A stretch of DNA of 64,000 bases from Escherichia phage HermannAdler_Bas98, in the sequence record PQ850608.1. The stretch is one strand, 5' to 3'. A program made the translations under genes and the position numbers. The notes under the pieces were generated by a model. It saw nothing but the letters and a program-made list of their open reading frames with translations, did not search any database and had not been told where the DNA came from. The stretch's first letter is position 1. Each line of letters begins with the position of its first letter. Shown here piece by piece: positions 2,170-59,359 of the stretch.

Positions 2170-2204
2170 ATTCATCGGCAAAGGATTGCCGCGAGTTTTA
2201 TACG

Positions 2205-2480
2205 TATAATGACGTATCATCCGTATCAAGTAAGTTATTGTTTTCAAAAGAATCTTACGGATGATACGGATGATACGCGTTGCCGCCGTACTATATAGGA
2301 ATTCAAATAAATTAATTTAAAATTATATATCTAATTTAATTTTATTTTTTTATAAACTCTTATATATGAAAAGTATCCGTATCATCCGTATCATCCGTAG
2401 CACACCAGTGATAGCGCGGCTTATACACCGATACGGATAAAAATACGCCTCATTTTATCCGTATCATCCGTATCACACTA
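2205..2480. repeat. iteron / AT-rich module A: tandem and inverted copies of the 9-mer ATCCGTATC flanking an AT-rich core
   Basis: ATCCGTATCATCCGTATCATCCGTAG at 2376-2399, ACGGATGATACGGATGATACG at 2259-2277, further copies 2213-2228 and 2458-2476; AT-rich core 2290-2360 contains GAATTC. Confidence 0.7.
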
Positions 2481-2532
2481 ATAAAGGCGCGGCTATATTG
2501 GTTGTTATACATATTCAAACCATAATTATTGT

Positions 2533-2561: not shown

Positions 2562-2590
2562 ACACAATACTTATTTGAGGGTGGATGCGA

Positions 2591-4006
2591 ATGCAAACGG
2601 CACGCGAAATTGACAAAAATGGATTCTTGACGATTATGGGTTGTCCAATTTCGTCATTTGGCATTTTTGATTATTCTGCTGGTCAAGTCGGTCTTGATGG
2701 TGATCCGAATCGCATCGTAAAAGTCTATCGCCCTGAGTCAGCGGTGAAAGACCCCGAAGCGATAGATTCATTCAAAAATATCCCTTTCATCGACAATCAC
2801 GAAATGCTTTCTGGATTTGAAGGTGATGAGGATAACACAGCACCCGAAGAGTATGGAGTTGATGGCGTTCTGACTGGCAATGTTTATTATGACAAGCCAT
2901 GGATGCGCGGCGACCTTAAAGTGTTTAGCCGTCGTCTGAAGAAGGCCATTGATTCTGGAAAGGTTGACTTGTCTTTGGGCTATGACTGTGAATTCATCAT
3001 ACAGTCTGGAGAGTTTGACGGGCAGCCGTATGAAGTGGTGCAGACAACTCTTCGCGGCAACCACATTGCTCTCGTGGACGTTGGTCGAGTACCAGGTGCA
3101 CGGGTGCTGGATGGTCGTTGCTTTGACCATCTTTGTTTGACGACTGTAACACCATCCAACGAGGATTTAGACATGCCAAAACCGTTAAAAGGTAAAGCGC
3201 GTGATAATGCTGTTGAACAGCTGAAATCACTGATCCCTGCGCTCGAACAATTTCTGAACGAAGAGAGTACTGAAGCTGCTCATCAGGACGAAGTTGAAGT
3301 GAAAGCAGAAGAGAAGGACTCAACCGAAAATCGTGAAGAAGTAATGGTTGATCCAGAAGTCAAGGCAGAAGCAGAAGAAACCCCAGAAGGTGAAGAGAAG
3401 TTTGAAGTTGAAACTGAATCTCACGCTGGCGGCGAACTTCCGCAATTGATCAGCCAAATCGAAGCACTTATTGCAAAACTGAAAGGTGGCGCGGTAGGTG
3501 ATGAAGAAGAAGTTGAAGCCGAAGTCAAAGACGAAGAAGAAGTTGAAGTCAAGGCTGAAGATGTATCACCTTGCGACAAAGCTGAAGATGTGGTTAGCGG
3601 CCTGCAAAACAGCAACGTAAAGGGGGCTTCGGTCGAAAAAGATGACAAACCGACAAAAGCGGCGAAAGCGTCGCCAGGTCCAGCAAAAGGGGAACACTCA
3701 ATGGCATCTGATTCAGCAGTTGCTGCTTTCTACGCTGATTCTGCTCGTAAGAATAGCCTCTACCAGCGCCTGTCTAAAGTTGTTGGTGCCTTTGATCATG
3801 CAACTATGGACTCCAAGTCCGTAGCGAAATATGGCGCTAAAAAGTTAGGCTTGAAGTGCGTTGATGGTGCTGAGTTTGACGTGGTGGATAATTATCTGCG
3901 CGGCGTTGAGCACGGTCAAAAACAGCGTGTAGTCGCAAAACAAAAGGCCGCTGCGGATTCTGCAGCAACTGACGAAGCATTTGAAGCTTGGTTGAAAGGG
4001 GAATAA
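2591..4006 (+). CDS. putative prohead protease / scaffolding protein
   Basis: Globular N-terminal domain followed by a long acidic E/K-rich coiled-coil-like tail (EEVEAEVKDEEE...); sits between head morphogenesis and capsid genes; GAGGGTGG RBS. Confidence 0.45.
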   Translation: MQTAREIDKNGFLTIMGCPISSFGIFDYSAGQVGLDGDPNRIVKVYRPESAVKDPEAIDSFKNIPFIDNHEMLSGFEGDEDNTAPEEYGVDGVLTGNVYYDKPWMRGDLKVFSRRLKKAIDSGKVDLSLGYDCEFIIQSGEFDGQPYEVVQTTLRGNHIALVDVGRVPGARVLDGRCFDHLCLTTVTPSNEDLDMPKPLKGKARDNAVEQLKSLIPALEQFLNEESTEAAHQDEVEVKAEEKDSTENREEVMVDPEVKAEAEETPEGEEKFEVETESHAGGELPQLISQIEALIAKLKGGAVGDEEEVEAEVKDEEEVEVKAEDVSPCDKAEDVVSGLQNSNVKGASVEKDDKPTKAAKASPGPAKGEHSMASDSAVAAFYADSARKNSLYQRLSKVVGAFDHATMDSKSVAKYGAKKLGLKCVDGAEFDVVDNYLRGVEHGQKQRVVAKQKAAADSAATDEAFEAWLKGE

Positions 4007-12330: not shown

Positions 12331-12890
12331 TGGACTTCGTTTCGATTCTGCTTTCTGGTCAATCTTTGACCATAACGAATGAGTCAACAGGTCTTCCTGT
12401 CTGGACAAGGCTTTCACCTGTTTCTGCAGAAATAACATCCCCAGCAGAAACAACTCAATTCCCTCTTGCTGGTACAGCCATGCAGGTTGTCGAAGTATCA
12501 AGCACGTCATCAGTAAGCAATTTACAGGCGGCAAAGGTTGTAATGCCAGCCCATATGGCGTTAAACGTAATTTGCAATGACCAGTCTACAATTGAAAATA
12601 TCATAAATTCATTTGATGATGACGAAGTCACATTTTCAATAACTTCACGAAGCATCATTGCCAGTAAAATGTCGATGTCCGACGTTGAAATAACCCAGTC
12701 AGAAGAAAACTTGAATGGAGTCTCAATAGTAATAACTTTCGAGCAAACGTCATTTAGCATTCAAGGAAGCTTCGACCCTAAACAATCTGCAGACGAATCA
12801 TCAAATGGTGTTGCTATTAAAGAACCAGTCAGTTTGACTACAACTGTGAGTTCGTTATATAATAAAATAAAATCAACAGTAGGAATATAA
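12330..12890 (+). CDS. hypothetical tail protein
   Basis: ATG overlapping upstream TGA. Confidence 0.5.
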   Translation: MDFVSILLSGQSLTITNESTGLPVWTRLSPVSAEITSPAETTQFPLAGTAMQVVEVSSTSSVSNLQAAKVVMPAHMALNVICNDQSTIENIINSFDDDEVTFSITSRSIIASKMSMSDVEITQSEENLNGVSIVITFEQTSFSIQGSFDPKQSADESSNGVAIKEPVSLTTTVSSLYNKIKSTVGI

Positions 12891-12891
12891 A

Positions 12892-13308
12892 ATGAAGATC
12901 ACCAACAAACAAACTGGTCGTACAGTAGAAATTAAAATCAGCAAAATGACTGCGATGGAAGGCTGGAATATTCAGCGTCGCTTTGTCGAATTTGCAATGT
13001 CGAAAGACCCTGCGTTTCGTTCAGAGTATACGATGGAAGTGTTGAGCTTCGCAAAAGTCGAGCTTGATGTGGGCCAAGAAATCCCATTAAGCACTGGTGC
13101 ACTAATTGACAACCATCTTGGTGACTGGGAAAACCTTAAAGAAGTCTTCGAAGCAGTCCTCATGGAGAACGGTATAAACCCAGATACTCACGCCGAGCGT
13201 GAAGGCTACTGGGAACAAGCTGGCGGCGAAATGGCTGCAGCATTCATCGGCGAATCGATGCGATTAATCGCGCCATTCCTCAGCGGCGAGACTCCAAACA
13301 AGGGGTAA
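12892..13308 (+). CDS. putative tail assembly chaperone
   Basis: 138 aa ORF immediately upstream of tape measure gene. Confidence 0.4.
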   Translation: MKITNKQTGRTVEIKISKMTAMEGWNIQRRFVEFAMSKDPAFRSEYTMEVLSFAKVELDVGQEIPLSTGALIDNHLGDWENLKEVFEAVLMENGINPDTHAEREGYWEQAGGEMAAAFIGESMRLIAPFLSGETPNKG

Positions 13309-39535: not shown

Positions 39536-40381
39536 TTATTCCGCTTGATCACCGTCTTCGGCATCGTCGTTGGATTCAACATCGACAAACTCGATGTGGC
39601 CCATCTCTTCCAGCTTGCTCAGGTAGGAGCGAACGGAAGCGCCAAACAGCTGATCTTTAACTTTCTCGCCCAGCTCATCGATAGACTGCGCCACGCCAAC
39701 TTCGCCTTCTTTGATCGCCGCCAGAACGCGCCCACGGGTGGAGTGCTCCTGCGGCTGGCTCAGGCCGTTGCCAGTGTAGATGAAGTGAGTAGCTTTTGCA
39801 CGGCGCTGACCGTTTGCCTTTTTGGCAGCCTTGCGCTCTGCGATGGCTTTGCGACGTTCTTCAGCTTCTTTCTTACGCTGTTCTTTTTGCTGTTCTGCAG
39901 CTTCTTTCGCCGCGATCTTAGCAGCTTCACGCTCTGCCTTGCGTTTCGCTTTCGCTTCTTCTTTAGCCTTCTCTTTTTCGGCCTTTGCTGCAGCACGGGC
40001 TTGATCACGCTCTGCTTTCTTAGCAGCAGCTTGTTCAGCTTTCAGGCGCTTGGCTTCTTCTTTGGCCTTTGCCTTTTCGATTTCTTTTGCTGCTTTAGCG
40101 GCTTCACGCTCTGCTTTCTTAGCAGCAGCCTTTTCTGCACGCTCTTTAGCTTTCTTAGCTGCTTCTTCAGCACGCTTCTGAGCCTTCTCATCAGCAGCCT
40201 GTTTGCGCTTCAGCGCGGCTTCTTCACGCTTGGCTTGTTTTTCCTGCTCACGCTTCTGGCGTTTTTCTTCGGCTTCTTTCTTTTTAGCCAGGCGTTTTTC
40301 TTCAGCCACGCGACGACGTTCTGCTGCGGCTGCTTGTTTTTCTTCTTTAGATAATACTTTGATTGCTTCGGCCATATTCAC
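39536..40381 (-). CDS. charged low-complexity (K/E/A repeat, TolA-like) protein with C-terminal globular domain
   Basis: About 190 aa of AEEKRQKREQEKQAKR / AKKAEREAAKAAKE repeats; DNA repeats such as CACGCTCTGCTTTCTTAGCAGCAGC occur twice. Confidence 0.6.
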   Translation of the reverse strand: MNMAEAIKVLSKEEKQAAAAERRRVAEEKRLAKKKEAEEKRQKREQEKQAKREEAALKRKQAADEKAQKRAEEAAKKAKERAEKAAAKKAEREAAKAAKEIEKAKAKEEAKRLKAEQAAAKKAERDQARAAAKAEKEKAKEEAKAKRKAEREAAKIAAKEAAEQQKEQRKKEAEERRKAIAERKAAKKANGQRRAKATHFIYTGNGLSQPQEHSTRGRVLAAIKEGEVGVAQSIDELGEKVKDQLFGASVRSYLSKLEEMGHIEFVDVESNDDAEDGDQAE

Positions 40382-42205: not shown

Positions 42206-43288
42206 ATGGCTAGTTTAAGAGAAGAAGCAAAAATAATCGAAGAGTTTTTGACGGAACTCCAAAGAGGCATTCCAGAAGACGAACGCGTCATGACCGTGTT
42301 TGCGCCTGAAGCGACAGTGCAGACTGACGAGCGCGGCAAGAAGATCAACAGCAGCTTCTGGCCTAAGCCTTGGAAGTTGGGCAAGTCGCTCATGCAGCAC
42401 CAAAACGGCTATGCGTGCATCAGTTCAATGCGTAAGTCTCCCAACCCAAAGACGGGTGAGATGCGATACTGGCGTACAGAGTCGGCCTTTGGTCACGGCA
42501 TGGCGATGATGGTCGACGACATCGGTCACGGTAAAGGGTCCAAAGGCGATTTAGATTTGGAATTCTTTTTTGAGCGACTGAAGCCGACTGTCATCGTCGA
42601 GACTTCACCGAACAACCACCAGCTTTGGTACTTCTTTAAAGAACCGATTGACCATCTTATTCAGTTCAAAGCGTTCCTTGGGTCTTTCGTTAACATGGTA
42701 CTCAAGAAGGGCGGCGACAACACGATTAAAGACGTAACGCGCGTGGGCCGTGTTCCTGGGTGCATCAACAACAAGCGTGTGACTCACGACGGCCCCTATA
42801 AATATGTCGATGAGAACGGCGACCCGTTCCGCTGCCGACTTGTCCATGCAGACTACTCATTGCGCTACACCATCGAAGACATTTGTCAGGCATTTGGCTT
42901 TCACGTCGTCATGCCGCAAAAGCGTGAGATTCAAATTGACGTCGATGAATACAAGTATGATGCTGTTTGGTATAAAATAGCCCAGCAGATTCTATCGCGC
43001 AACAAAATGGGTGAAGGGTCTGATGGCGACGTCATCGAGAACATGTCAGGCAAGTGCCGCATAATCTGTCCTTGGGGTGAAGAACACACCAACGGCGACC
43101 CGTATGGCGCTTACTTTCGCGGCCCTATTCCTGGTGCAGAACATGAGTTTGTGTTCGGTTGCGCCCACGACTGTCACCGGAAAGGGGAAGGCAAGAAAGG
43201 TTGGACTGCTTTTGTTGAAGCAATCGTCATGCCTTATATTGAGAATCAACTTGACATGATAAATCGTCGTGCAGGTGGCATAAAATAG
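42206..43288 (+). CDS. primase-polymerase (AEP-family) protein with C-terminal Cys/His cluster
   Basis: MVDDIGHGKG, SPNNHQLWYFF and TRVGRVPGCINNK blocks resemble prim-pol motifs; C-terminal CPWGEEH...GCAHDCH. Confidence 0.5.
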   Translation: MASLREEAKIIEEFLTELQRGIPEDERVMTVFAPEATVQTDERGKKINSSFWPKPWKLGKSLMQHQNGYACISSMRKSPNPKTGEMRYWRTESAFGHGMAMMVDDIGHGKGSKGDLDLEFFFERLKPTVIVETSPNNHQLWYFFKEPIDHLIQFKAFLGSFVNMVLKKGGDNTIKDVTRVGRVPGCINNKRVTHDGPYKYVDENGDPFRCRLVHADYSLRYTIEDICQAFGFHVVMPQKREIQIDVDEYKYDAVWYKIAQQILSRNKMGEGSDGDVIENMSGKCRIICPWGEEHTNGDPYGAYFRGPIPGAEHEFVFGCAHDCHRKGEGKKGWTAFVEAIVMPYIENQLDMINRRAGGIK

Positions 43289-44597: not shown

Positions 44598-46268
44598 ATG
44601 TCAATTAATAATGACAATCTTCCAGAGGATACAGGTGATGAATTTGGTGCAATCTTTGACGAAATTCAAGATGCAGGCGTTTCGGAAGAAATGCAGGCAG
44701 CAGAGCAGCAAGGCACCAGAGCTAAAATCAGCCTTCAACACAAAGCCGTTGAAAAAGATTCAGAGCGCATGGAATGCTACGGTGAAGAAGACTTGGTTGA
44801 AAGAGCACGCTTGCTCGCCTCACTTCAGGTAATCAAGTTCCCTCACTACAAGCCTACCAAAGATGACTTCGTTCTACAGGCAGACCGGACGAGTGACATG
44901 AACCGTTATGCGGTTTTCGACGCGTTGTTTGATAAGGGAAGTGGCGTTGTTCCATTCCCTCACAAAGATACTTTTCGTGGGCGCTTAGTCGACCATCGCG
45001 GCGAAACTTTCACCGACCGGACGTTGGAAGTCACAGAGATAGTTGCCGCTGTCGACGCAGCAGGTCTGTCCAACCCAAACTCACGTCAGGTAGCTCAATC
45101 CTATAAGGAATGGGCTATGCGTTATCAGCGTGACGACCTGATGGACTTCTTCTACAAGAAGCTGCCTGAATGGGACGGTACTGCGCGCATTGAGAAATAC
45201 CTTATCGAGCTATTCCGACCGTTCGATACAGAGTTAAACCGACAAATCGGTGTGTATTTTTGGCTATCGCTCTACAACCGACTGACCAACCCTGGCTGTC
45301 AAGCGCCAATCTCCATCGCGCTCATCGGCGGCCAGAACGCAGGGAAGAGTTATTTTAGCAAGCTACTTTGCGAAGCTATTATGAACGACCGCCACGCAAC
45401 ACCGATTCCGTTGAACTTAGCCGCGCAGAACTTCAACCCGTTCTTGCGAGCTATTACGGGTCGCTCAATTATCGCGAACGTCGGCGAGATGACAGGCTTT
45501 AAAAAGGCCGACATCGAAAACATGAAAGCATTCCTGACTAAGACGGAAGATGACCTGGACTTCAAATTTGAAGATACTCAGGTTAAACCACGCCAGTGGA
45601 TTGCTATCATGGACGGCAACGAATACGCAGGCATGCAGCGTGATGACACGGGCAACCGTCGTGTGTATCCTATCTTTGTTGGCCAACTCGCTGACAAGGA
45701 CGGGCAACCGAACTGGTCGAAAGATTTCCAAGCTGACCTTTCCACTTTGAAAGAAGACGTTTGGCAGTTGATGGCTGAGTGCGCTGCATGGATGGAGAAG
45801 CACGGCGAAGCAGGCTATAACGCGTTTGTTGGTGAAACATCTCGCATGCTTACTGAGTTCAGTAAAAACGAAATGGAACGTGCACGCGGCGTTATTCGTG
45901 ATGAGATGGTTGACAACGACCTTGTTGAAGTCGTCATCACCGCGCCTTATGACCGACATCACAGCGGACGCTGGCACATCACCAGTGGTGCTATTGCTAT
46001 GGGATTCAGAGCGAAGTGCGGCAAGTCGCCTTTCTCTCGTACCCTTGCGCCGCACATGTCGAAGCTTGGTTTTGAGCCTGCGACCTATCGCAACCAGCGC
46101 GGTTACTTTACGCCGCTGATTAAGAATGAAGCAGGGGAATACATTTCCGACTTGATGACCATCTTAGCGTATCTTATCCGTGATGAGTCTGACCCTGAAG
46201 ATATTGAATTCTTGAAGAAGGTTATCGAGCGTAAACGTTCTTTGGGAAGAGATAAGGATGAATTCTGA
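44598..46268 (+). CDS. VirE/D5-like P-loop NTPase (putative primase-associated helicase)
   Basis: Walker A GGQNAGKS; downstream acidic Walker B-like region; AGGAGG RBS; partner of prim-pol gene. Confidence 0.55.
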   Translation: MSINNDNLPEDTGDEFGAIFDEIQDAGVSEEMQAAEQQGTRAKISLQHKAVEKDSERMECYGEEDLVERARLLASLQVIKFPHYKPTKDDFVLQADRTSDMNRYAVFDALFDKGSGVVPFPHKDTFRGRLVDHRGETFTDRTLEVTEIVAAVDAAGLSNPNSRQVAQSYKEWAMRYQRDDLMDFFYKKLPEWDGTARIEKYLIELFRPFDTELNRQIGVYFWLSLYNRLTNPGCQAPISIALIGGQNAGKSYFSKLLCEAIMNDRHATPIPLNLAAQNFNPFLRAITGRSIIANVGEMTGFKKADIENMKAFLTKTEDDLDFKFEDTQVKPRQWIAIMDGNEYAGMQRDDTGNRRVYPIFVGQLADKDGQPNWSKDFQADLSTLKEDVWQLMAECAAWMEKHGEAGYNAFVGETSRMLTEFSKNEMERARGVIRDEMVDNDLVEVVITAPYDRHHSGRWHITSGAIAMGFRAKCGKSPFSRTLAPHMSKLGFEPATYRNQRGYFTPLIKNEAGEYISDLMTILAYLIRDESDPEDIEFLKKVIERKRSLGRDKDEF

Positions 46269-46915
46269 TGAATAAAGCAATCAACATCGCTAAATTCTTT
46301 CAACATCTTGGTGAACTGAACAAAGAAAGTGACGTTCACGGCGAAGAAATGAACCGGATGATCTCAACCGTGTTGCGTGGCTTTGGTTATGATAAGGACT
46401 CAATCACTTGCAAGCGTACAAAGCTTGTTGATGAGTCTTATCTTTACTACGTAGAGCTGCGCATCGGGAAAGATGTGATGATCATTGACCCTAAACTGGA
46501 AGGGGCGCACTGTTTTGGCGCTCACCCTCGTGCGAGTGAATTCAAGGGGCGCGGTCGCAACCGAATCCAGAAGCTTGATGACGCAGGCGACTTGAACATT
46601 GCAATGTTCCTTAAAGAGTTCCTTGCGCTACCGAAGGTTGCATCATCCACTGGCCGTGATGACCCTTGCAAGATTGGATTCAGAACTAAAGATTTGCGCA
46701 ATGCGCTACGCAAGAAGGGATTTGTGCCTTCTTATGACAACGTCGCCGCGCTGATGGCTTCAATGGAGGAAGCTGAAGCAATGGATAAAGTGCGCGGCTA
46801 TTTCCTGAATACAGGCTTCACCATGTATGAATGGCACACGAAGGGATTGACTGTCGCCGACTTCATCTATTCATTAGAGCAGAAGTATGTACGCAATATG
46901 CAGGCCACAGGATAA
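46268..46915 (+). CDS. hypothetical protein
   Basis: ATGA overlap with upstream gene. Confidence 0.55.
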   Translation: MNKAINIAKFFQHLGELNKESDVHGEEMNRMISTVLRGFGYDKDSITCKRTKLVDESYLYYVELRIGKDVMIIDPKLEGAHCFGAHPRASEFKGRGRNRIQKLDDAGDLNIAMFLKEFLALPKVASSTGRDDPCKIGFRTKDLRNALRKKGFVPSYDNVAALMASMEEAEAMDKVRGYFLNTGFTMYEWHTKGLTVADFIYSLEQKYVRNMQATG

Positions 46916-46954
46916 TTATCATCAAAATATTTGCTTTTCTGACGAGGTGATATT

Positions 46955-47179
46955 ATGATTAATTTAGACAGGATTGAGTTAGCACTTAGTACCTTAATCA
47001 AATATTACCAGTTTGCTTTTAAGGCTAGTTTGTTTGGCTTGTTCAATCCTCATCAAGCAGCAAAGGCGCGAAGCAATGCCAACCGCCTGCGCTGCACTGG
47101 TATAGTTATCCACGACCGGATATTGACAGAGGGTAGATTCAGCCATGAATACACAAGGGAGAATAACAAAGCAACGTAG
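46955..47179 (+). CDS. hypothetical protein
   Basis: GAGGTGA RBS. Confidence 0.35.
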   Translation: MINLDRIELALSTLIKYYQFAFKASLFGLFNPHQAAKARSNANRLRCTGIVIHDRILTEGRFSHEYTRENNKAT

Positions 47180-47350
47180 GGCTTTACAAGTCCTCATCCA
47201 CTACCTGTCACGCCTTTATCCAACGGCGCACGAGCAGAATCCAGCAACTGGTCATCTGTTTAAGCGCCGTAACCTTTCGCTAAAAACATTCGCTTTAATC
47301 CAACATGACCGCTACCTGGACGGGCGCTATTGCGGCCCGAAGGATTCTCT

Positions 47351-47629
47351 ATGATTACTACATACAAAGTATTCTTCGTCAAGTGCACATCATCTATTGA
47401 TGACCAATTTACTGCTGGCAAGAATTATCCCGTGATTTCTGAGTCAAAGCTAGATATAATCTTGAACGATCATGAAATCTATGAGCCGATGCCAGCGACT
47501 GCGTTTGATGTTATCGGTCACGTTCGGATTAAGACGAATGTTGAAACGATGCATGATCCGTTGTTCAAGAAGCAAATTAAGAATGCCATGCAAGACTTTT
47601 GCGCGGCTATGTTTAAATATTATAAGTGA
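47351..47629 (+). CDS. hypothetical protein
   Basis: AAGGA RBS, ATG 47351. Confidence 0.4.
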   Translation: MITTYKVFFVKCTSSIDDQFTAGKNYPVISESKLDIILNDHEIYEPMPATAFDVIGHVRIKTNVETMHDPLFKKQIKNAMQDFCAAMFKYYK

Positions 47630-47636
47630 GTTGAAG

Positions 47637-47858
47637 ATGAGCAAGAAAACCCTTAAGGCTGGCGACCGTATCCGTTGGGTATCAGGACAGCACATGCGTG
47701 CAGGCACCATCCTTGAGCTGGACGAATACCTTACCGATTCGCGCGGTCGTAATCACTACCGTGTAAGAATCGATACAGTAAAAGAAGATGACAAGTCGCT
47801 GGTTGGTGAAGTCGTCATTGTAACTCCACGTCAAATAAAGGCGGCTTGTGAAGCATGA
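47637..47858 (+). CDS. hypothetical protein
   Basis: 73 aa ORF. Confidence 0.45.
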   Translation: MSKKTLKAGDRIRWVSGQHMRAGTILELDEYLTDSRGRNHYRVRIDTVKEDDKSLVGEVVIVTPRQIKAACEA

Positions 47859-48010
47859 ATAAATATCAATTTAACGATAATAAAATCAGTAAGGCAGACG
47901 CAATCAAGCAGCTTCGCCGCGTACTTGAAGCCAGCGGCCATACGAAAGAGCGCGCACGCGTCCTAGCCAAAGAACATTATAAACGTTTTGTGTCACAAAT
48001 CAGAGGTTAA
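47855..48010 (+). CDS. small protein (51 aa)
   Basis: ATGA overlap with upstream gene. Confidence 0.35.
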   Translation: MNKYQFNDNKISKADAIKQLRRVLEASGHTKERARVLAKEHYKRFVSQIRG

Positions 48011-48012
48011 TT

Positions 48013-48507
48013 ATGATCATCCATCGCCCTTTAATGTTAAACAAAGAAGAGTGTGAAGAAATTTTACACGCATTGAGACGTGCAGAAGCAGATGTTAACC
48101 TTCGTGTAAGGGTAAGAGACTTCATCATGAAGGAGTTTGAAAGTGATGATGTTGACTATGCCATTGATGAATTGCTGAAGCGCAACGTCAAGGGTGCAAC
48201 AAGACCTATTCACCATCAATCACGTTGCGTACAAGTTCCTATTCAAACTTATGTTGATAAAAAGCCGCGCCTTAAGCCTGTTCCGGCTGATAAGATAGAA
48301 GTTGGTGACGTTATTGTTTGCGTATATTACGGCAGTCAGATTTTCAATGCTGTTGTGGTAAGGCGATACAGCATAAACGGTTGCCAATACATGGAAGTGA
48401 CAAACACAAAGAAAGAACCTGGCAGCTTGAACGTGGCTTACGCATTAAGTGAATGCAGCAGTCCTTCTTGCACTCTTTATAAGGTACTCGACCATGGCTC
48501 ATGTTAA
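48013..48507 (+). CDS. hypothetical protein
   Basis: 164 aa ORF. Confidence 0.5.
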   Translation: MIIHRPLMLNKEECEEILHALRRAEADVNLRVRVRDFIMKEFESDDVDYAIDELLKRNVKGATRPIHHQSRCVQVPIQTYVDKKPRLKPVPADKIEVGDVIVCVYYGSQIFNAVVVRRYSINGCQYMEVTNTKKEPGSLNVAYALSECSSPSCTLYKVLDHGSC

Positions 48508-48841
48508 AGACGAAGTGCTTTTTGGCGCAGAGATTAAGAAACGTGTCAGAGAAATGGCAGGAGAAGAAAGAATGAAGCCGTTGCGAAAAGGTTTTGATCA
48601 CATCAATGGCGTATCCGGCACGAAGGAGATGGGCGTGTTGGTAAAAGACATTCGCATTGGCGATGTCATGGTCATCGACCGACAAGCGCGCGTCGTTATC
48701 CAGGTGCAACCGAACGATGATGAAGGTTGTGTTCTATTGAAGCTGAAGAAGCTTTCATCCAGCCCAGCGAAGGCCGTCATCAAGAAGGTATGGCCCGAAG
48801 GATTACGCAAACTCATTCGTCGACCCGTGGAGAATGTTTAA
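48494..48841 (+). CDS. hypothetical protein
   Basis: ATG 48494 overlapping upstream gene by 14 nt. Confidence 0.4.
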   Translation: MAHVKDEVLFGAEIKKRVREMAGEERMKPLRKGFDHINGVSGTKEMGVLVKDIRIGDVMVIDRQARVVIQVQPNDDEGCVLLKLKKLSSSPAKAVIKKVWPEGLRKLIRRPVENV

Positions 48842-49077
48842 TGGAAGATTATATTAACGCGATGTATATGGCATTCTATGTCGTGCAAATTCCCAATGGC
48901 GCGGTATTCTATGGCGAGTATACCTTTGACGTTCAATATGACGTTTCAGAGCGTACAGTGTTAACAAGGGAGCTAATCGCGGACCTTAAGGACGACATCA
49001 AGCGCGTCGCGCGGCAGCAGTTCAATTTAGATGACACCGTAATCGTTCGCATTACCGGAATAACAGAGGTGCAGTGA
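48841..49077 (+). CDS. hypothetical protein
   Basis: ATG overlapping upstream TAA. Confidence 0.45.
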   Translation: MEDYINAMYMAFYVVQIPNGAVFYGEYTFDVQYDVSERTVLTRELIADLKDDIKRVARQQFNLDDTVIVRITGITEVQ

Positions 49078-49406
49078 TGACCCGTGATCAGATACTCGCC
49101 GCGCATGAGCGTGGGTTGATAAAGGAAGTGTGGAAGAAGGCCAATGCCTTTGCTGATTCTTATTACTTCTTAAAGAAGTGCATAAAAGAAAATGCAAGAA
49201 TGGGCAATACAGTATTGACTTTTAATCTTCTTTCTTATGGCGAAAAGCTTAATGCAATATATGCTTGTCGACTAGCCAGCATGAAGTTCGATAGAGGAAA
49301 TGACGGAGAGTTGACCATCTATCGATTCTCCCACAGGACGGGAGATACAAAGATAACAAGGACGCGTGACCAGATAGAGATTGACTTACTCCACTATGCA
49401 AAATGA
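49074..49406 (+). CDS. hypothetical protein
   Basis: ATGA overlap. Confidence 0.5.
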   Translation: MMTRDQILAAHERGLIKEVWKKANAFADSYYFLKKCIKENARMGNTVLTFNLLSYGEKLNAIYACRLASMKFDRGNDGELTIYRFSHRTGDTKITRTRDQIEIDLLHYAK

Positions 49407-49409
49407 ATA

Positions 49410-49491
49410 TCAAAAAGGTGAGCTAAATGCTTGCCTTTTCTTTTATCAATACTTATACTCTTTTCATCAAGACGAACAAGTGAGGTGAATT
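49410..49491 (+). promoter_or_regulatory. repeated promoter cassette copy 1 (conserved 30-mer + sigma70-type promoter)
   Basis: TCAAAAAGGTGAGCTAAATGCTTGCCTTTT identical to 50947-50976; TTGCCT - 17 nt - TATACT; conserved TCATCAAG. Confidence 0.55.
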
Positions 49492-49809
49492 ATGATTTAC
49501 TTAGGAATGGACGAAGATGCGCACAAAGACCTTTCAAGGGTGCCAAACGTTAAGTTAGACACAGCCGTACACATCAAGCCTTGGCCAATCGTCCACCCAA
49601 ACGTAGTTGTACCAGTCGCGCCTGGCACGCGTTACGTGGCCATTGATGACGACGGAGTCATTCACTGTTATTCGGAAAAACCAAAGTACATAGAGCAATA
49701 TCACGGTTGGTTCTTGGATGAGCGTGCAATGGCGCGTTACTGCGGCGAAGTCGGTCTGGAAGGCTGGGGATTCAAGGCTAGTGAATCGTGTGTCGAGGTG
49801 CAATTATGA
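49492..49809 (+). CDS. hypothetical protein
   Basis: GAGGTGA RBS. Confidence 0.5.
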   Translation: MIYLGMDEDAHKDLSRVPNVKLDTAVHIKPWPIVHPNVVVPVAPGTRYVAIDDDGVIHCYSEKPKYIEQYHGWFLDERAMARYCGEVGLEGWGFKASESCVEVQL

Positions 49810-50305: not shown

Positions 50306-50306
50306 A

Positions 50307-53999: not shown

Positions 54000-54016
54000 T
54001 TATGATTAATGTTAAG

Positions 54017-54037: not shown

Positions 54038-54529
54038 TTTGCCTGTGTAATGGGAGGCTTTTGTGGTTATTTACGATTCAAGGCTGTAATTTAAGAGAGC
54101 GAAAATATTATAATAATTTATCAAGATTATTGCATATTGTGGCAATCAACGTTTATACGTATTTATGACAGTTTAATCCACTAAATAATACGGATAGAAC
54201 AGTGAGGAAAATACAGCGGTGTATTTTAGTGTAAATATTGAATCAAAAATAAATAATTATGGTGCTATTATATACGCAGATTGTTTGTAATTTATAGGAT
54301 ATTTTATCGTGGAGTATTGGCTAACGGTGCGTTAGCCGTGGGTCTTGGTGCTTGTGGTGTTGATGCTCAGAATTTTAATAATGTTTTTAGTTTTAGTAAT
54401 CGTAGTCAATGATGATACGTATAAGAAAATGAGAGTCACCCCTTCACAGGATATTGTACCGTGGCCCTGTGGTGCGCCGCGCCTGGGATTGCTGGTATAC
54501 ACTGGTGCTATTTTGCCGCGAAGGCAGTC

Positions 54530-54790
54530 ATTCATACGTATCATGACGTATCATTGGGCTATTGATTTATAAGGAAAAATACGCTGATACGGATGATACG
54601 GGTGCAAACATAATATATATAGAATTCCAGAAAATTAATTAACTCCATTTTGAATTAATTTAAATTAATTTTTTTCTACATCCTCATACTTATACTAAAC
54701 TTATATTCATACGTATCATCCGTAAGATATAAGTAAAAACAAGGACTTGCGGCAATACGGATGATACGTCATGATACGCTTCGACCAGCC
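54530..54790. repeat. iteron / AT-rich module B (homologous to 2205-2480)
   Basis: CATACGTATCATGACGTATCAT, GATACGGATGATACG, AT-rich core with GAATTC and AATTAATTTAAATTAATTTTTTT, then CATACGTATCATCCGTA and AATACGGATGATACGTCATGATACG. Confidence 0.7.
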
Positions 54791-54943
54791 AGCAGCGGCT
54801 AAGTCATTGATTTGCATAGCAAGCGGCGAAAGGGATGGATTTCTTTTATACGTATCAAACAGTACACCACGCACCACGGTCCGCAATCCTATTTGCAATA
54901 TGATTTGTGTACGTTTATAGCCATAATGAACATCAATCTGCAC

Positions 54944-54972
54944 TTGAATATAATGTCCATCCATTGTATAAT
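54944..54972 (+). promoter_or_regulatory. sigma70-type promoter candidate
   Basis: TTGAAT - 17 nt - TATAAT. Confidence 0.45.
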
Positions 54973-54992
54973 TCACACTATTAATTTGCACT

Positions 54993-55481
54993 ATGGGATT
55001 TTGCACTATGAGTCAAGATTATGTAGCGATGCCTGAAGACTTTGAAGACCCGCGATTCGCAGAGCACAATCAGGCTTTATTCGATGAGTTCATTGACCTT
55101 GTTATTCAGGGTCATGACATGCGCGCAGCTTTTGCACTAGTATTTGGAATGGAAGTTGCAACGGATAACTACACTGGCCAGCGAATCCTTTGCACGCAAC
55201 GCAATCCATACTACAAGATGCGCTTCAAAAAGCGTATGGAAGAGATGCCACTCAAGGATTTGTGGAGCGTAAAAGGTGCAATTCACAATTTGGTCAAGCT
55301 TGTGCGTGATCCAGAAGTCGCGGCGTCAGCCAAGCTTAATGCTATTCGTGAACTGAATATCATCTACGGCATCACGATGATTGATGAAAACGGCAATAGT
55401 AAAATGGGCCGTTCTATGGACGATTTCTACAAGGATTTTGGAGAGGCTGCCAAAGAAGGAGAGCAATTCTCCCGCCACTAG
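54993..55481 (+). CDS. hypothetical protein (possible helix-turn-helix; terminase small subunit-like)
   Basis: 162 aa ORF; no Shine-Dalgarno; the repeat motif TTTGCACTATG lies on its start region; functional call speculative. Confidence 0.4.
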   Translation: MGFCTMSQDYVAMPEDFEDPRFAEHNQALFDEFIDLVIQGHDMRAAFALVFGMEVATDNYTGQRILCTQRNPYYKMRFKKRMEEMPLKDLWSVKGAIHNLVKLVRDPEVAASAKLNAIRELNIIYGITMIDENGNSKMGRSMDDFYKDFGEAAKEGEQFSRH

Positions 55482-55500
55482 CCAATTTGCACTATAAAAC

Positions 55501-55534
55501 GGCCCTAGAACACATGTTCTCCACTTCTAGGGCC
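55501..55534 (+). terminator. stem-loop (possible terminator)
   Basis: GGCCCTAGAA - 14 nt - TTCTAGGGCC; no T tract. Confidence 0.35.
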
Positions 55535-55595
55535 ATCGGTAATACGACGGGGAAGGTCGCACCCATAAACGCGTTAGAAAGTGTATTATTATAAG

Positions 55596-55859
55596 TCATC
55601 TTTTAGTCGCTTTACGTAACAATTTACGACCTTCAACCGTCCAATCGAACGACTCCACCAGCAGATTCGCACTATAACCTAAGACGATGCGCCCTTTCTC
55701 GTTATCGACCCGCCAACAAGTCTCGAATAGCATTCGATTTGCACTATTAACTATTGCCGCAACGCGCGTAGGGTAAGCGCAATTTGCACTATGGTCGTAA
55801 AGGGATAAGGTGCGACCACTTCCGATGGACAATGTAGCGATGAGAATAAGCGTATTCAT
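55596..55859 (-). CDS. hypothetical protein (doubtful ORF within repeat array)
   Basis: 87 aa ORF with GGTGG RBS, but contains three motif copies (translated as SAN). Confidence 0.3.
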   Translation of the reverse strand: MNTLILIATLSIGSGRTLSLYDHSANCAYPTRVAAIVNSANRMLFETCWRVDNEKGRIVLGYSANLLVESFDWTVEGRKLLRKATKR

Positions 55860-55909
55860 AAGCCACCAATTTGCACTATGAAAAGCGACCCCGAAGGGCC
55901 GCCATTCGA

Positions 55910-56536
55910 TTAGATAATCTGGAAGGTGTAGGACTTGTTGCCGAACTCGAAGTTCAAGCGTCCAGCTTCTTTAAGCTTCATGCGGAAGCGAATGTGCTTG
56001 CTATCCGGTAATCCCAGCGCGGCGAAGGCTACGCGGACCGATTTGAACTCGCCTACACCCTCGACCATAACGCCGTTACGGGTGAGACGCTTTTGCGCCA
56101 CTTCCTTATTATCCCAACTTTTTGCAATACCTTCGCTATTCGAACGGCGATGGGAAGGAGTTCCATTTTGCACTACGCAATTTGCACTATCGTTTAAGCC
56201 GCTCTTAACGAAGGCTTCATACTCTTCATCGCTCATCGCGTCGAGTTCTTCCTGGGTCGGCTCAGCCTTTTTAACGACCGCACGCGCCTTATGCGTTTTT
56301 ACATCACTGGACACTTCCTCACGCGGCTTCGCGTCGGGAATGGGCGATTCGTTGGACGGCTCATCGAGCGCGTTTAAGGACTCGATTAACGCGATTACGC
56401 GAGTCTCGGCGGTCCGGCGGTCCGCAAATTTCTTAATCGGCTTCGAACCGGAATTTGCATTATAAAATGCAACGAGGTCGGCGGTCTTAGTTGCGATAAC
56501 GTCGCCGCTAGTAGAAAAGCGATTTAAGCTAACCAT
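55910..56536 (-). CDS. hypothetical protein (candidate DNA-binding protein of the island)
   Basis: 208 aa; RBS context AGGAGTTTATTATGG identical to the next gene; two motif copies inside coding sequence. Confidence 0.5.
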   Translation of the reverse strand: MVSLNRFSTSGDVIATKTADLVAFYNANSGSKPIKKFADRRTAETRVIALIESLNALDEPSNESPIPDAKPREEVSSDVKTHKARAVVKKAEPTQEELDAMSDEEYEAFVKSGLNDSANCVVQNGTPSHRRSNSEGIAKSWDNKEVAQKRLTRNGVMVEGVGEFKSVRVAFAALGLPDSKHIRFRMKLKEAGRLNFEFGNKSYTFQII

Positions 56537-56616
56537 AATAAACTCCTATTTGTTAGGGCGCTAGGCGCGAAAGAATTTTATTAAAGCGCCGCGCACGACG
56601 CTCTAAAAATCCTCTC

Positions 56617-56931
56617 TTACTCTTCGTCGTCTTCGATTAATTCGAGGGCGAAGGCGTAAGCTTTGCTATCGTAATTAACTAAAACGGCGAGTTCGAACTC
56701 GTTAATAAACGCCGTTTTACCGCATAAATTTAATTCCGCATCGACTTCGAAGAATCCGTTTTCGTCGCGCTCTAAGCGAGAAGCAGCGAGTTGCTCGATT
56801 ACCGTCGCGTCGTTAATTTCTTCGCCTAAGCGAACGCCGGAGAATTTCGCGAGAATTTCGCCGTAAGTAAGCGTAACGCCCTGGACTTCGGCGGCGGCGT
56901 TTTCGAGGGTAAAGCGGGTAACGATAGCCAT
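56617..56931 (-). CDS. small very acidic protein (104 aa)
   Basis: 22 Asp/Glu vs 7 Lys/Arg; AGGAGTTTATTATGG start context; C-ending codon bias distinct from neighbouring early genes. Confidence 0.6.
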   Translation of the reverse strand: MAIVTRFTLENAAAEVQGVTLTYGEILAKFSGVRLGEEINDATVIEQLAASRLERDENGFFEVDAELNLCGKTAFINEFELAVLVNYDSKAYAFALELIEDDEE

Positions 56932-56999
56932 AATAAACTCCTAGTTGGGAGAGGCGTTAACGACCTATTCGTTAACTCATCCCGTCCCGATATGAGTAC

Positions 57000-57027
57000 A
57001 TTATAATATAGTGTAGAAAAAAGTAAA
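57000..57027 (-). promoter_or_regulatory. promoter cassette copy (minus strand) driving 56617-56931
   Basis: Minus strand reads GTGCTTTACT - 16 nt - TATAAT ... ATATCGGGACGGG, matching the two plus-strand cassettes. Confidence 0.5.
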
Positions 57028-57071
57028 GCACTTTTTCGATAAAAATGCGATAAATTATTTTATCTTTTTTC

Positions 57072-57099
57072 TTTACTTCTTCGTACACTCGCGTATACT
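57072..57099 (+). promoter_or_regulatory. promoter cassette copy driving 57156-57458
   Basis: CTTTACTTCTTCGTACACT ... TATACT (16 nt spacer) ... TTTATATCGAGACGGG. Confidence 0.5.
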
Positions 57100-57155
57100 T
57101 GTTTATATCGAGACGGGCGATGGCCCTTTCTTCTACTAGCATCGGGAGCTTTATT

Positions 57156-57458
57156 ATGACTACTTTAATCTCTTCCATCCTTACTTACGACGAAGACCGC
57201 TTAACCGTTCGCTCTCTTATCGCCGCCGTTAACGCGGAACTAGAATCTAGCGCCATTAAGGTCCGCGCGGTCGCCTTCATCGGCCTTTCCTTCGACGATA
57301 TGAAGTATGCCGAACGTAGCGCCATCCGCTTCGCGAAGACCGACGACGAAGCCGTTACCCTTATCGAGACGGTTACGCCGCGCGGCGAAGCGTTAATTAT
57401 CGTCGAGTATATCGACGTAGAAGGCGATAAATCTTATAAACATTTTATCGCAGAATAA
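57156..57458 (+). CDS. small acidic protein (100 aa)
   Basis: 18 Asp/Glu vs 11 Lys/Arg; C-ending codon bias. Confidence 0.6.
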   Translation: MTTLISSILTYDEDRLTVRSLIAAVNAELESSAIKVRAVAFIGLSFDDMKYAERSAIRFAKTDDEAVTLIETVTPRGEALIIVEYIDVEGDKSYKHFIAE

Positions 57459-57470
57459 CGAAAAAAGTGC

Positions 57471-57499
57471 TTTACTTCTTCGTACACTAAGACTATAAT
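57471..57499 (+). promoter_or_regulatory. promoter cassette copy driving 57567-57857
   Basis: GTGCTTTACTTCTTCGTACACT ... TATAAT (17 nt spacer) ... TTTATATCGAGAGGGG. Confidence 0.55.
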
Positions 57500-57566
57500 G
57501 TTTTATATCGAGAGGGGATGAGGTAGCGAATAGGTCACTACCCTCCCGACTAACTAGGAGAATATT

Positions 57567-57857
57567 ATGATTACTTTAGCCGCTATCCGTTCCGCTCGCG
57601 TCGAAACTTCCGAAAACTCTAACGTATTTGGCGAAAAACTTAAAAACGTTTATCTCTTTAACGTAGATGCGACTATCGAGGAGCTTCACAGTCCTATCGA
57701 TTTTAGCGAATTTACGGAACTCGAAGAGGAAGATATTTCTACCTTCCGCGTTACTATCGAAGGCAAGGTTTATTTTGCTACGGAGTTCGGCGGCGAATAT
57801 CTCGCGGTATCCGAAGGCGAAGGCCGTTACTCTTTCTTTAAAATCGTTTCCTTATAA
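57567..57857 (+). CDS. small acidic protein (96 aa)
   Basis: 18 Asp/Glu vs 8 Lys/Arg; TAGGAG RBS. Confidence 0.6.
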   Translation: MITLAAIRSARVETSENSNVFGEKLKNVYLFNVDATIEELHSPIDFSEFTELEEEDISTFRVTIEGKVYFATEFGGEYLAVSEGEGRYSFFKIVSL

Positions 57858-57877
57858 TACCCTTCCGTTACTAATAG

Positions 57878-57900
57878 GCCGCGCTTAGTCGCGGCTTTTC
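57878..57900 (+). terminator. rho-independent terminator
   Basis: GCCGCG-CTTAGT-CGCGGC followed by TTTT. Confidence 0.6.
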
Positions 57901-57904
57901 TTCG

Positions 57905-58555
57905 TCCCTATCTCGATGCGCTCCTACGCGAAAACTCCTTTATCCTTCCCTTCGTCGTCGCATAATCTTCTTCGAGATGCGTCTTAGTTCGCATAACAGG
58001 TATTACGTTAAATGGAGAACATCGCGTAAGTCCTTGTTTTATATAGACACCTATATCGGACCGTTAGGGCGGGTCGCGTAAGTCGTTGTTTTATAAAGGC
58101 ACAAAACTTTCCCTTCGTTCCGAACTAAAACGAGAAATATGCCGACCCTTCGCCCGAAAATAGTACGTATGCGAAATTACATTCATCTCGAATAATCCCT
58201 CCCGATATTATCCTACACGCAATCATTCGCTTTCGAATCATTATGCTTCATATTATTATGCGTCGAATCATTCGCTTTCGAATTGTAACGCTGGAAACTG
58301 TAACGTCGATTGATTATTGCGTTCGTGTGGTTTTTATGGCATGGGTCTTTTGGTGCGTTTTGCTACTTGATGGAATTTGCGGTACACTAATCAAAATACG
58401 ACACATTTGGTCCACTAACTTTTCAAAGAAAAAGTCCTAGACAGTACCGTACTATTTTGTACCCACAGGAAATTTGCAGTACACTCCTGAGCGGCAGGCA
58501 AAATAAAGGGCCGCACTAAGCGACCCACGATTCACGGTTAAATCAGCAACACCCA
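57905..58555. repeat. noncoding repeat-rich region
   Basis: No credible ORF; duplicated GCGTAAGTC(C/G)TTGTTTTATA, duplicated AATCATTCGCTTTCGAAT (ATTCG...CGAAT arms), duplicated TTTGC(G/A)GTACACT. Confidence 0.55.
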
Positions 58556-59352: not shown

Positions 59353-59359
59353 GTTAACC

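What the first reader, a model, noticed from the sequence alone, without database searches (positions are those of the whole stretch)
2205..2480. Two homologous iteron / AT-rich modules about 52 kb apart
Both 2205-2480 and 54530-54790 have the same architecture: direct and inverted copies of the 9-mer ATCCGTATC (tandem triple at 2376-2399) on either side of a 60-70 bp AT-rich core that contains GAATTC and AATTAATTTAAA. Both sit upstream of a sigma70-like promoter and in the same orientation. The 9-mer resembles but does not match a DnaA box (TTATCCGTA vs TTATCCACA). Candidate functions are paired replication origins, packaging recognition sites (module B lies upstream of a possible small-terminase-like gene at 54993), or operator arrays for a phage regulator.
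Basis: seen in the sequence. Interest (0 to 1): 0.65.

Follow-up and report, generated by a model that had tools for sequence, protein, structure and literature searches.

The report
Paired origin-like modules; one marks genome end
This E. coli phage carries two copies of a short-repeat/AT-rich DNA module that looks like a replication origin for its own helicase, and one copy is also the exact spot where the packaged genome begins, a pairing conserved in the related Pseudomonas phages used for therapy.

Summary
The window is a Wifcevirus (PB1-like E. coli myophage). Thirteen of the 14 copies of CGTATCAT lie in two collinear, homologous modules: A at 2185-2500 and B at 54405-54860. Their cores are the two most AT-rich stretches of the 64 kb.

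Syntenic module pairs with different repeats occur in Pbunavirus PB1 (GGTAATTT) and Serratia Myosmarvirus (ACTTTTCG). This points to a phage-encoded binder.

The phage encodes a helicase (44598-46268) that matches SaPI Rep1 in sequence and predicted fold, including a C-terminal winged helix. Rep1 is a self-loading initiator whose origins are iterons in both orientations around an AT-rich centre. In relatives, module B directly follows this helicase gene.

Independently, the packaged genome's left end (start of a 3.8-kb terminal repeat) maps inside the core of B at 54646|54647, 360 bp upstream of terS. Published ends in Myosmarvirus and Pbunavirus also fall in their B modules. Correctly oriented Chi sites cluster just inside that end in relatives.

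Best reading (about 0.5): paired Rep-type origins, with B doubling as the terminase cut site. Main rival (about 0.25): the repeats are TerS recognition sites. DnaA boxes are not supported. No binding or origin mapping exists.

The parts
2185..2500 (+). Module A as a whole: an intergenic iteron/AT-rich module between a small ORF (1961-2128) and the prohead protease gene.
   Evidence: It is 95-98% conserved in Wifcevirus relatives.
2201..2230 (+). A, left arm: three forward iterons (TACGTATAA weak, GACGTATCAT, CCGTATCAA).
   Evidence: PWM hits of 10.5-16.1 bits; sequence checked.
2252..2279 (-). A, left arm: three inverted iterons (reverse complement CGCGTATCAT CCGTATCAT CCGTAAGAT).
   Evidence: This is one arm of a perfect 22-nt inverted repeat with 2378-2399 (I5).
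2283..2374 (.). A, AT-rich core and candidate DNA-unwinding element. It contains GAATTC and AATTAATTTAAA.
   Evidence: 84% AT. The window 2293-2372 is 91% AT, rank 1 of the 64 kb, and the least stable by nearest-neighbour energy.
2375..2403 (+). A, right arm: three tandem forward iterons with a 9-bp period.
2428..2449 (-). A, right arm: one inverted iterons copy (ATCCGTATC) plus a weak one.
2457..2477 (+). A, right arm: two tandem forward iterons.
2585..4006 (+). Prohead maturation protease (DUF2213), the first gene of the late head/tail block downstream of A. A promoter-like site lies at 2533-2561.
   Evidence: Pfam PF09979, E=4.6e-35; annotation in Bas99; promoter scan.
54405..54860 (+). Module B as a whole: the paralogue of A, upstream of terS.
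54535..54555 (+). B, left arm: two forward iterons. A further inverted copy lies at 54411-54421.
54578..54603 (-). B, left arm: two to three inverted iterons.
   Evidence: This array is kept in three otherwise unalignable left-arm variants within the genus.
54604..54708 (.). B, AT-rich core.
   Evidence: 81% AT. The window 54631-54710 is 84% AT, rank 2 of the 64 kb.
54646..54647 (.). Left physical end of the packaged genome and start of the direct terminal repeat (AATTAACTCC | ATTTTG).
   Evidence: The exact 3784-bp terminal repeat of WFC starts here (ends were set from read ends). The PhageTerm-opened Mansfield record starts at the same base. The cut context is conserved in the genus and in sister contig L041.
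54710..54729 (+). B, right arm: two forward iterons (ACGTATCAT, CCGTAAGAT).
54752..54780 (-). B, right arm: three inverted iterons. A further forward copy lies at 54849-54859.
55008..55481 (+). Small terminase (TerS).
   Evidence: phmmer E=7e-34 to PDB 7UXE, deposited as 'Small terminase', 10 chains; its assignment to phage E217 is from memory. Annotated TerS in Mansfield.
54647..58431 (+). Direct terminal repeat, about 3.8 kb; one copy is in this window.
   Evidence: Mapping of the WFC repeat boundaries onto the window.
44598..46268 (+). VapE-like SF3 helicase, the candidate self-loading initiator that would bind the iterons.
   Evidence: Pfam PF05272. phmmer E=4e-11 to 7PDS, SaPI1 Rep1. The AF2 model has pLDDT 89.7 with a C-terminal winged helix at residues 459-504. 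Foldseek top hits are the 7PDS chains, E=1e-16, about 480 aligned columns.
42206..43288 (+). RepB-type primase, a conserved partner in the cassette primase - helicase - module - terS.
   Evidence: Pfam PF16793, E=2e-36. The cassette is seen.

Best explanation
Modules A and B are two paralogous replication-origin-type elements.

**Anatomy.** Each has about six short iterons (core CGTATCA, often in 9-bp tandem) on either side of a 90-105-bp AT-rich unwinding core, in both orientations.

**Proposed mechanism (inferred).** The winged-helix C-terminal domain of the phage's own SaPI-Rep-like SF3 helicase (44598-46268) recognises the iterons. One hexamer loads on each flank, the AT core melts, and the RepB-type primase and DnaE-type polymerase take over.

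**Second role of B (shown by mapping).** Terminase makes the cut that creates the left end of the virion DNA and the start of the 3.8-kb terminal repeat inside the core of B, 360 bp upstream of terS. Module A is not a reported end.

**Shown:** the anatomy, the A/B homology, conservation across genera with lineage-specific repeats, the identity of the helicase and of TerS, and the position of the genome end.

**Inferred:** which protein binds the repeats, and that replication starts at these modules.
For: 1. **Architecture.** Repeats in both orientations flank the two most AT-rich, least stable segments of the window.
2. **An initiator is encoded.** The helicase matches SaPI1 Rep1 by sequence (E=4e-11) and by fold over nearly its full length, including a winged-helix C-terminal domain.
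3. **The known Rep origins look the same.** Rep origins are described as 6-12 short iterons just downstream of rep, with an AT-rich centre and at least two iterons per side in opposite directions (PMC9371898).
4. **Synteny in relatives.** The B-type module directly follows the helicase gene, or the helicase gene plus one ORF, in PB1, Hera, Gekk3-15, L042, L045, L048 and L049.
5. **Lineage-specific repeats.** The repeat sequence changes with lineage while position and layout stay. The repeats are CGTATCA (Wifcevirus, L041), TTATCCGCAAGA (L042), GGTAATTT (PB1), ACTTTTCG (Myosmarvirus) and CTGTAACTC (L045). Where A exists, A and B always share the same repeat.
6. **Selection on the repeats.** Within Wifcevirus, three mutually unalignable left arms of B all keep the arrays.
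7. **No alternative origin.** No other iteron-like cluster exists in the 64 kb. The 4.4 kb of the genome missing from the window was checked only for CGTATCA, which does not cluster there.
8. **The genome end lies in the core of B.**
   - Wifcevirus.
   - Myosmarvirus MTx and MyoSmar.
   - Pbunavirus: the Ab28 and Pa193 records both start at PB1 coordinate 58910, inside PB1's module B. [quoted passage not shown]
   - Chi sites in the orientation active for RecBCD entering at that end cluster just inside it: Hera has 4 of 4 genome-wide within 1.3 kb, and L042 has 6 of the 7 in the 21.7-kb locus.
Against: - No binding, origin-mapping or copy-number data exist for any phage of this group.
- In this window B lies 8.3 kb from the helicase gene but only 360 bp from terS. 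In every relative examined the module sits between the helicase gene and terS, so synteny cannot tell the two candidate binders apart.
- A terminase cut flanked by repeat arrays is also the classic layout of pac sites.
- GC skew does not show an origin-type switch at A or B. It follows gene orientation, with the cumulative minimum near 41-42 kb. A published skew-based guess for Pbunavirus puts origins inside the replication genes (PMC12390725).
- Aeromonas phage Gekk3-15 has only one module, so the second copy is not universal.
Confidence: 0.5

Rival explanations
1. The repeats are recognition sites for the small terminase. On this reading module B is a pac-type site whose TerS-binding arrays flank the cut, and module A is a second, uncut TerS-binding site used for synapsis, for titration, or to couple packaging to late-gene expression.
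For: - The genome end lies in the core of B in three genera.
- terS starts 360-390 bp downstream in Wifcevirus and Myosmarvirus.
- The module is always adjacent to terS, even where 8 kb separates it from the helicase gene.
- Repeats flanking the cut are the layout reported for SPP1 pac (review PMC9611059) and, from my own knowledge, for P1 pac.
Against: - Module A has every element of B, and an even more AT-rich core, yet is not a reported end.
- An unwinding-type core has no obvious role in a site that only binds TerS.
- E217 TerS, a homologue at E=7e-34, showed no appreciable DNA binding in vitro (PMC9611059).
- If the repeats belong to TerS, the Rep-like helicase is left without any iterons in the genome.
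- A separate, B-specific, one-directional repeat (ATTTGCACTAT, 10 copies at 54891-56463) is an alternative candidate for what terminase reads.
Confidence: 0.25
2. The repeats are operator arrays for a phage-encoded transcription factor. This factor would control the promoters just downstream: the late head operon at A and terS at B.
For: Both modules lie in the same orientation 55-150 bp upstream of sigma70-like hexamers and of the first gene of a rightward block. Earlier work on PB1-like phages noted 'AT-rich boxes' and conserved intergenic motifs and suggested promoter-related roles (PMC3008698).
Against: - About twelve sites spread over 300 bp around a 90-bp AT core is unlike known operators.
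- The sites do not overlap the promoter hexamers.
- Promoter-like matches are no more frequent than chance.
- No candidate regulator was identified.
- This reading explains neither the genome end in B nor the linkage to the helicase gene.
Confidence: 0.1
3. The repeats are clusters of host DnaA boxes that recruit the host initiator.
For: TTATCCGTA and TCATCCGTA fit a very relaxed DnaA-box consensus recalled from memory. The repeat TTATCCGCA in sister contig L042 differs from TTATCCACA at one position.
Against: - There is no strict TTATNCACA in either module and only one in the whole window.
- Syntenic modules in Pseudomonas, Serratia and Caballeronia relatives use unrelated repeats, although the DnaA box is conserved among these hosts (own knowledge).
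Confidence: 0.03

Closest known systems
SaPI (Staphylococcus aureus pathogenicity island) replication origin with its Rep self-loading helicase (PDB 7PDS, 7OLA)
   Same: The helicase is homologous in sequence and fold, including a C-terminal winged helix. Short iterons lie on both sides of an AT-rich centre in both orientations. There are about 12 sites per module. In relatives the module lies immediately downstream of the helicase gene, with a primase gene next to it.
   Different: - There are two copies per genome.
- In this phage the copy nearest the helicase is 8 kb downstream of it.
- The repeats are longer (7-9 nt core) and partly head-to-tail at a 9-bp period.
- A packaging cut lies inside the AT core of one copy.
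- No biochemistry exists.
Satellite phage P4 ori plus crr (own knowledge: the alpha primase-helicase binds the same octamer in two clusters 4.5 kb apart, and both are needed in cis)
   Same: Two separated clusters of the same short repeat, in direct and inverted orientation. The initiator is an SF3 primase-helicase type protein with a winged-helix DNA-binding domain.
   Different: Here the two sites are 16/52 kb apart on the circular map and each has its own AT-rich core. Whether one depends on the other is unknown.
pac sites of P1 and SPP1 (repeat elements on both sides of the terminase cut)
   Same: In module B the cut lies in a central segment flanked by repeat arrays, next to terS.
   Different: A second, uncut copy exists. 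The related TerS (E217) showed no DNA binding in vitro. The phages here have a fixed 3.6-3.8-kb terminal repeat, or in Pbunavirus a single fixed end, rather than a classical pac series.
T7 concatemer junction with nearby origin/promoter elements (own knowledge: replication or transcription near the junction is needed to duplicate the terminal repeat)
   Same: An origin-like element lies at the boundary of a direct terminal repeat, so local DNA synthesis could duplicate the repeat.
   Different: T7 uses its own RNA polymerase promoters and a 160-bp repeat. Nothing here shows that replication is needed to make the ends.

Membership tests
Iteron origin of a Rep-type SF3 self-loading helicase (SaPI type) | The element encodes a Rep-like SF3 helicase with a C-terminal winged-helix domain. 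| tested here: met
   phmmer E=4e-11 to 7PDS. AF2 model pLDDT 89.7 with a helix-strand-helix-helix-wing motif at residues 436-504. Foldseek top hits are the 7PDS chains, E=1e-16, TM 0.61.
Iteron origin of a Rep-type SF3 self-loading helicase (SaPI type) | Six to twelve short iterons, split by an AT-rich centre, with at least two per side in opposite directions. | tested here: met
   About six sites per flank in both orientations in A and in B. The cores are the two most AT-rich 80-bp windows.
Iteron origin of a Rep-type SF3 self-loading helicase (SaPI type) | The origin lies immediately downstream of the rep gene. | tested here: inconclusive
   Not so in this window: B is 8.3 kb downstream and A is elsewhere. 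It holds, directly or with one ORF between, in PB1, Hera, Gekk3-15, L042, L045, L048 and L049.
Iteron origin of a Rep-type SF3 self-loading helicase (SaPI type) | The helicase binds the iterons and melts the AT region, and replication starts there. | not testable with these tools
   This needs EMSA or footprinting and marker-frequency or 2D-gel mapping.
Terminase recognition/cleavage site (pac or cos type) | A physical end of virion DNA maps in the site. | tested here: met
   Met for B only: WFC and Mansfield at window 54646|54647; MTx and MyoSmar; the Ab28 and Pa193 records start in PB1's module B. No end is reported at A.
Terminase recognition/cleavage site (pac or cos type) | The small terminase binds the repeated elements specifically. 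| not testable with these tools
   The only relevant datum is that E217 TerS showed no appreciable DNA binding in vitro (PMC9611059).
Terminase recognition/cleavage site (pac or cos type) | Every copy of the site in the genome is a cleavage site. | tested here: not met
   Module A carries the same repeats and core but is internal to the linear WFC and Mansfield records. The CTCC at the cut in B is replaced by TTTA in A.
DnaA-box cluster | Repeats match TTATNCACA. | tested here: not met
   No match in either module and one in the whole window, at 35884. Relatives use unrelated repeats.
Two-site origin of P4 type (ori plus crr) | Two separate clusters of the same iteron, both required in cis. 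| tested here: inconclusive
   Two clusters with the same iteron are present. The cis requirement cannot be tested here.

The most novel reading that the evidence does not exclude
Replication initiation and genome-end formation are physically coupled.

- The terminase would cut the origin core of B after the Rep-like helicase has opened it.
- Firing of this origin, which sits exactly at the boundary of the terminal repeat, would supply the extra copy of the 3.8-kb repeat that each packaged genome needs.
- Module A would be a second, packaging-silent origin. It may contribute to the very short latent period reported for these phages.
- The conserved cassette primase - helicase - module - terS would then be one functional unit.
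Probability: 0.2. Interest if true: 0.8.

Novelty: new variant of a known kind. Interest (0 to 1): 0.6.

Why it matters
- PB1-like phages include the Pbunaviruses, among the most used therapy phages against Pseudomonas aeruginosa, and the very fast-growing Wifceviruses.
- In the papers found here, neither their replication origin nor their packaging site has been defined, and published reports on their genome ends conflict (PMC12390725).
- This analysis gives precise, testable candidates for both. It also offers a possible reconciliation of the end-mapping reports: a fixed cut in module B, followed by a fixed repeat in some genera and apparently headful packaging in others.
- It points to a conserved gene-site cassette linking a SaPI-type initiator helicase to the small terminase.
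- Knowing these sites matters for engineering and rebooting these phages, and for judging their transduction risk.

Tried and rejected
1. **Unrelated contig with the same repeat.** A scan of viral contigs for the tandem repeat found an unrelated GC-rich contig (L014) with a CGTATCA array next to a primase-helicase. Its protein has no detectable similarity to any ORF of the window. I treat this as convergence or a selection effect of the search.
2. **GC skew.** It simply follows gene orientation.
3. **GCGGC as a genome-wide strand marker.** It shows no strand switch along the genome. Only its local polarity around the modules is real.
4. **Separating helicase from TerS by covariation.** The winged-helix wing (YRNQRGYFTP) is identical in the two lineages that share CGTATCA and differs in the others. 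TerS similarity tracks the same tree, so this is not decisive.
5. **Separating them by genomic context.** Every relative found, including integrated elements in Caballeronia, keeps helicase - module - terS together.
6. **Transcription start data.** Supplements for Pbunavirus 14-1 are not held.
7. **Rfam.** No family matches. The single weak miRNA match is the inverted repeat, at 22.8 bits against a 140-bit threshold.
8. **A third module at the right boundary of the terminal repeat (58431).** None is there.
9. **Strict DnaA boxes.** None is in the modules.
10. **The AT-rich repeat region at 56950-57500.** It looks like duplicated promoter blocks, not an iteron origin.

Full report
**Identity of the window.** The window is 96-99% identical to Wifcevirus phages: vB_EcoM_WFC, Bas99 ManiWeber, vB_Eco4M-7 and Mansfield. 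These are about 68-kb E. coli myophages distantly related to Pseudomonas PB1-like phages (10.1101/2024.09.12.612763). By alignment to WFC, the window covers the genome except about 4.4 kb holding terL and most of the portal gene.

**The observation.**
- ATCCGTATC with at most 1 mismatch occurs 23 times against 10 +/- 3.3 expected, clustered at the two stated places.
- The conserved core is CGTATCA(T). Thirteen of the 14 CGTATCAT copies lie in the modules.
- A k-mer cluster scan of the whole window ranks these repeats first.
- A and B align collinearly over about 300 bp (blastn E=1e-14). Both have the same order: forward array, inverted array, AT core, forward array, inverted array, forward copy. 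There are roughly six sites per flank.
- The cores are the two most AT-rich and thermodynamically least stable 80-bp windows of the 64 kb, at 91% and 84% AT against a mean of 54% (SD 7).
- The inner arrays form an inverted repeat across the core: 22 perfect pairs in A and 13 in B. Fold z-scores are -6.8 and -3.8.

**Conservation.**
- Within the genus, module A is 95-98% identical.
- Module B has three left-arm variants that barely align with one another. All three keep the arrays and the AATTAACTCC|ATTTT context.
- Beyond the genus, syntenic module pairs sit upstream of the prohead protease and upstream of terS in two further genera.
  - PB1: regions 12619-13171 and 58592-59511, repeat GGTAATTT, A versus B E=7e-13.
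  - Serratia Myosmarvirus Hera: repeat ACTTTTCG, A versus B 71% over 231 bp, E=2e-19.
- Metagenomic sister contigs show gradual change of the repeat: ACGTATCA in L041 and TTATCCGCAAGA, nine copies, in L042.
- An integrated relative in Caballeronia uses CTGTAACTC.
- Aeromonas phage Gekk3-15 has a single module.
- Lineage-specific repeats in a constant layout argue for a co-evolving phage-encoded binder rather than a host factor.

**Candidate binder 1, the helicase.**
- ORF 44598-46268 is a VapE-like P-loop protein. It matches SaPI1 Rep1 (7PDS) at E=4e-11.
- A confident AF2 model (pLDDT 89.7) has the Rep1 chains as its best PDB matches over about 480 columns (E=1e-16). It ends in a winged helix.
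- According to PMC9371898, SaPI Reps are self-loading initiator helicases. Their winged helix reads 5-6-nt iterons, and 6-12 iterons lie just downstream of rep. The centre is AT-rich, and each side has at least two iterons in opposite directions.
- That description fits the modules. In PB1, Hera, Gekk3-15, L042, L045, L048 and L049 the module follows the helicase gene directly or after one ORF.
- No other iteron-like cluster that could serve this helicase exists in the window.

**Candidate binder 2, TerS, and the genome end.**
- ORF 55008-55481 is a small terminase (E=7e-34 to 7UXE).
- WFC is a linear record with an exact 3784-bp terminal repeat. Its left boundary maps to window 54646|54647, inside the core of B. 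Its right boundary maps to 58431. The authors set ends where most reads stopped.
- Mansfield, opened by PhageTerm, starts at the same base.
- In Myosmarvirus, the PhageTerm repeat boundaries of MTx and MyoSmar fall at the edge of the core of their module B, 376-387 bp upstream of terS.
- In Pbunavirus, the Ab28 and Pa193 records both start at PB1 coordinate 58910, inside PB1's module B. [quoted passage not shown]
- Chi sites, in the orientation that RecBCD entering at this end would recognise (established Chi polarity), cluster just inside it. All 4 in the Hera genome lie within 1.3 kb, and 6 of the 7 in the 21.7-kb L042 locus do so.
- The core of B is therefore a real DNA end. Module A is internal in all linear records.

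**Weighing the two.**
- Synteny cannot separate helicase from TerS, because the cassette primase - helicase - module - terS is kept everywhere I looked. Covariation is equally uninformative.
- I favour the helicase/origin reading for the repeats for four reasons.
  - A shares every element of B, and has the stronger unwinding core, without being an end.
  - A Rep-type initiator needs iterons and these are the only ones.
  - The homologous E217 TerS did not bind DNA appreciably in vitro (PMC9611059).
  - B-specific signals exist that could explain why only B is cut. These are the CTCC at the cut, which is TTTA in A, and a one-directional array of ATTTGCACTAT to the right of B.
- The pac-type reading remains a serious rival. 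The two are not exclusive.

**A further shared feature.** GCCGC to the left and GCGGC to the right of the core hold in 40 of 41 occurrences across seven modules of four genera. There is no genome-wide strand pattern. Its meaning is open; priming sites on the lagging-strand template are one idea.

**What is known already.** Papers on PB1-like phages mention AT-rich boxes and conserved intergenic motifs of unclear function (PMC3008698). They report contradictory genome ends and place putative origins by GC skew inside the replication genes (PMC12390725). In the papers the searches turned up, none assigns these modules as origins or packaging sites. No Rfam family matches.

**Verdict.** This is a real, conserved, functional DNA element pair. 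It is best described as a new variant of Rep-type iteron origins, present in two copies, one of which also holds the packaging cut.

Noticed in passing
window 54891-56463: Ten copies of ATTTGCACTAT (at most 1 mismatch) lie on the + strand, in the first 1.8 kb of the terminal repeat. Several sit inside genes encoded on the - strand. Only one other copy exists in the window. The same one-directional motif is kept to the right of module B in sister contigs L041 and L042, whose iterons differ. It is a candidate terminase, ejection or early-promoter signal.
   Followed up: partly
L039+L040 (Hera, reverse-complement coordinates 51690-52786); L042 13236-14439; L044 (MTx) 179-1276; window 55655: Chi sites (top-strand CCACCAGC) cluster just inside the left genome end, in the orientation active for RecBCD entering there. 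Hera has 4 of 4 genome-wide, and L042 has 6 of the 7 in its 21.7-kb locus. The window itself has only one in the repeat.
   Followed up: partly
window 2188-2493 and 54476-54827; also PB1, Hera and Gekk3-15 modules: The pentamer GCGGC points outward from the AT core: GCCGC on the left and GCGGC on the right. This holds for 40 of 41 occurrences in seven modules of four genera. In PB1, Hera and Gekk3-15 the right flank of B is almost free of G except in this motif, and the left flank is G/T-rich.
   Followed up: partly
window 58374-58388 and 58471-58485: The right boundary of the terminal repeat (58431) is bracketed by two direct copies of AATTTGCNGTACACT, about 40 bp away on each side. No CGTATCA iterons are there. 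Two copies is not beyond chance on its own (13 of 100 shuffles).
   Followed up: partly
L014 2190-2625 (IMGVR_UViG_3300046683_000304): An unrelated GC-rich 43-kb viral contig has an array of the same CGTATCA core at the 3' end of, and downstream from, a 716-aa ORF that I read by eye as a primase-helicase. That protein has no detectable similarity to any ORF of the window.
   Followed up: partly
window 57009-57060 and 57438-57489: A 52-nt inverted repeat (77% complementary) and repeated promoter-like blocks (CTTTACTTCTTCGTACACT...TATAMT) flank the small gene 57099-57458 inside the terminal repeat. This is the fourth most AT-rich spot of the window.
   Followed up: no
L001 4282-4921 (Bas99_0091 to 0093); L043 3497-3862 (MyoSmar_007); L005 125-283 (Mansfield_001): Public records annotate small hypothetical ORFs across module B. 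Given the repeat/AT-rich structure, and the genome end inside it, these are probably not genes.
   Followed up: no
window 46268-54000: About 8 kb of small + strand ORFs separates the helicase gene from module B in Wifcevirus and in L041. In PB1, Hera, Gekk3-15 and L042 the two are adjacent or one ORF apart. This looks like an accessory-gene insertion zone.
   Followed up: no
window 39820-40280 and 3287-3559: There are in-frame coding repeats: a repeat-rich gene on the - strand whose homologue in Gekk3-15 is annotated TolA-like, and acidic GAAGAAGTT-type repeats inside the protease gene.
   Followed up: no
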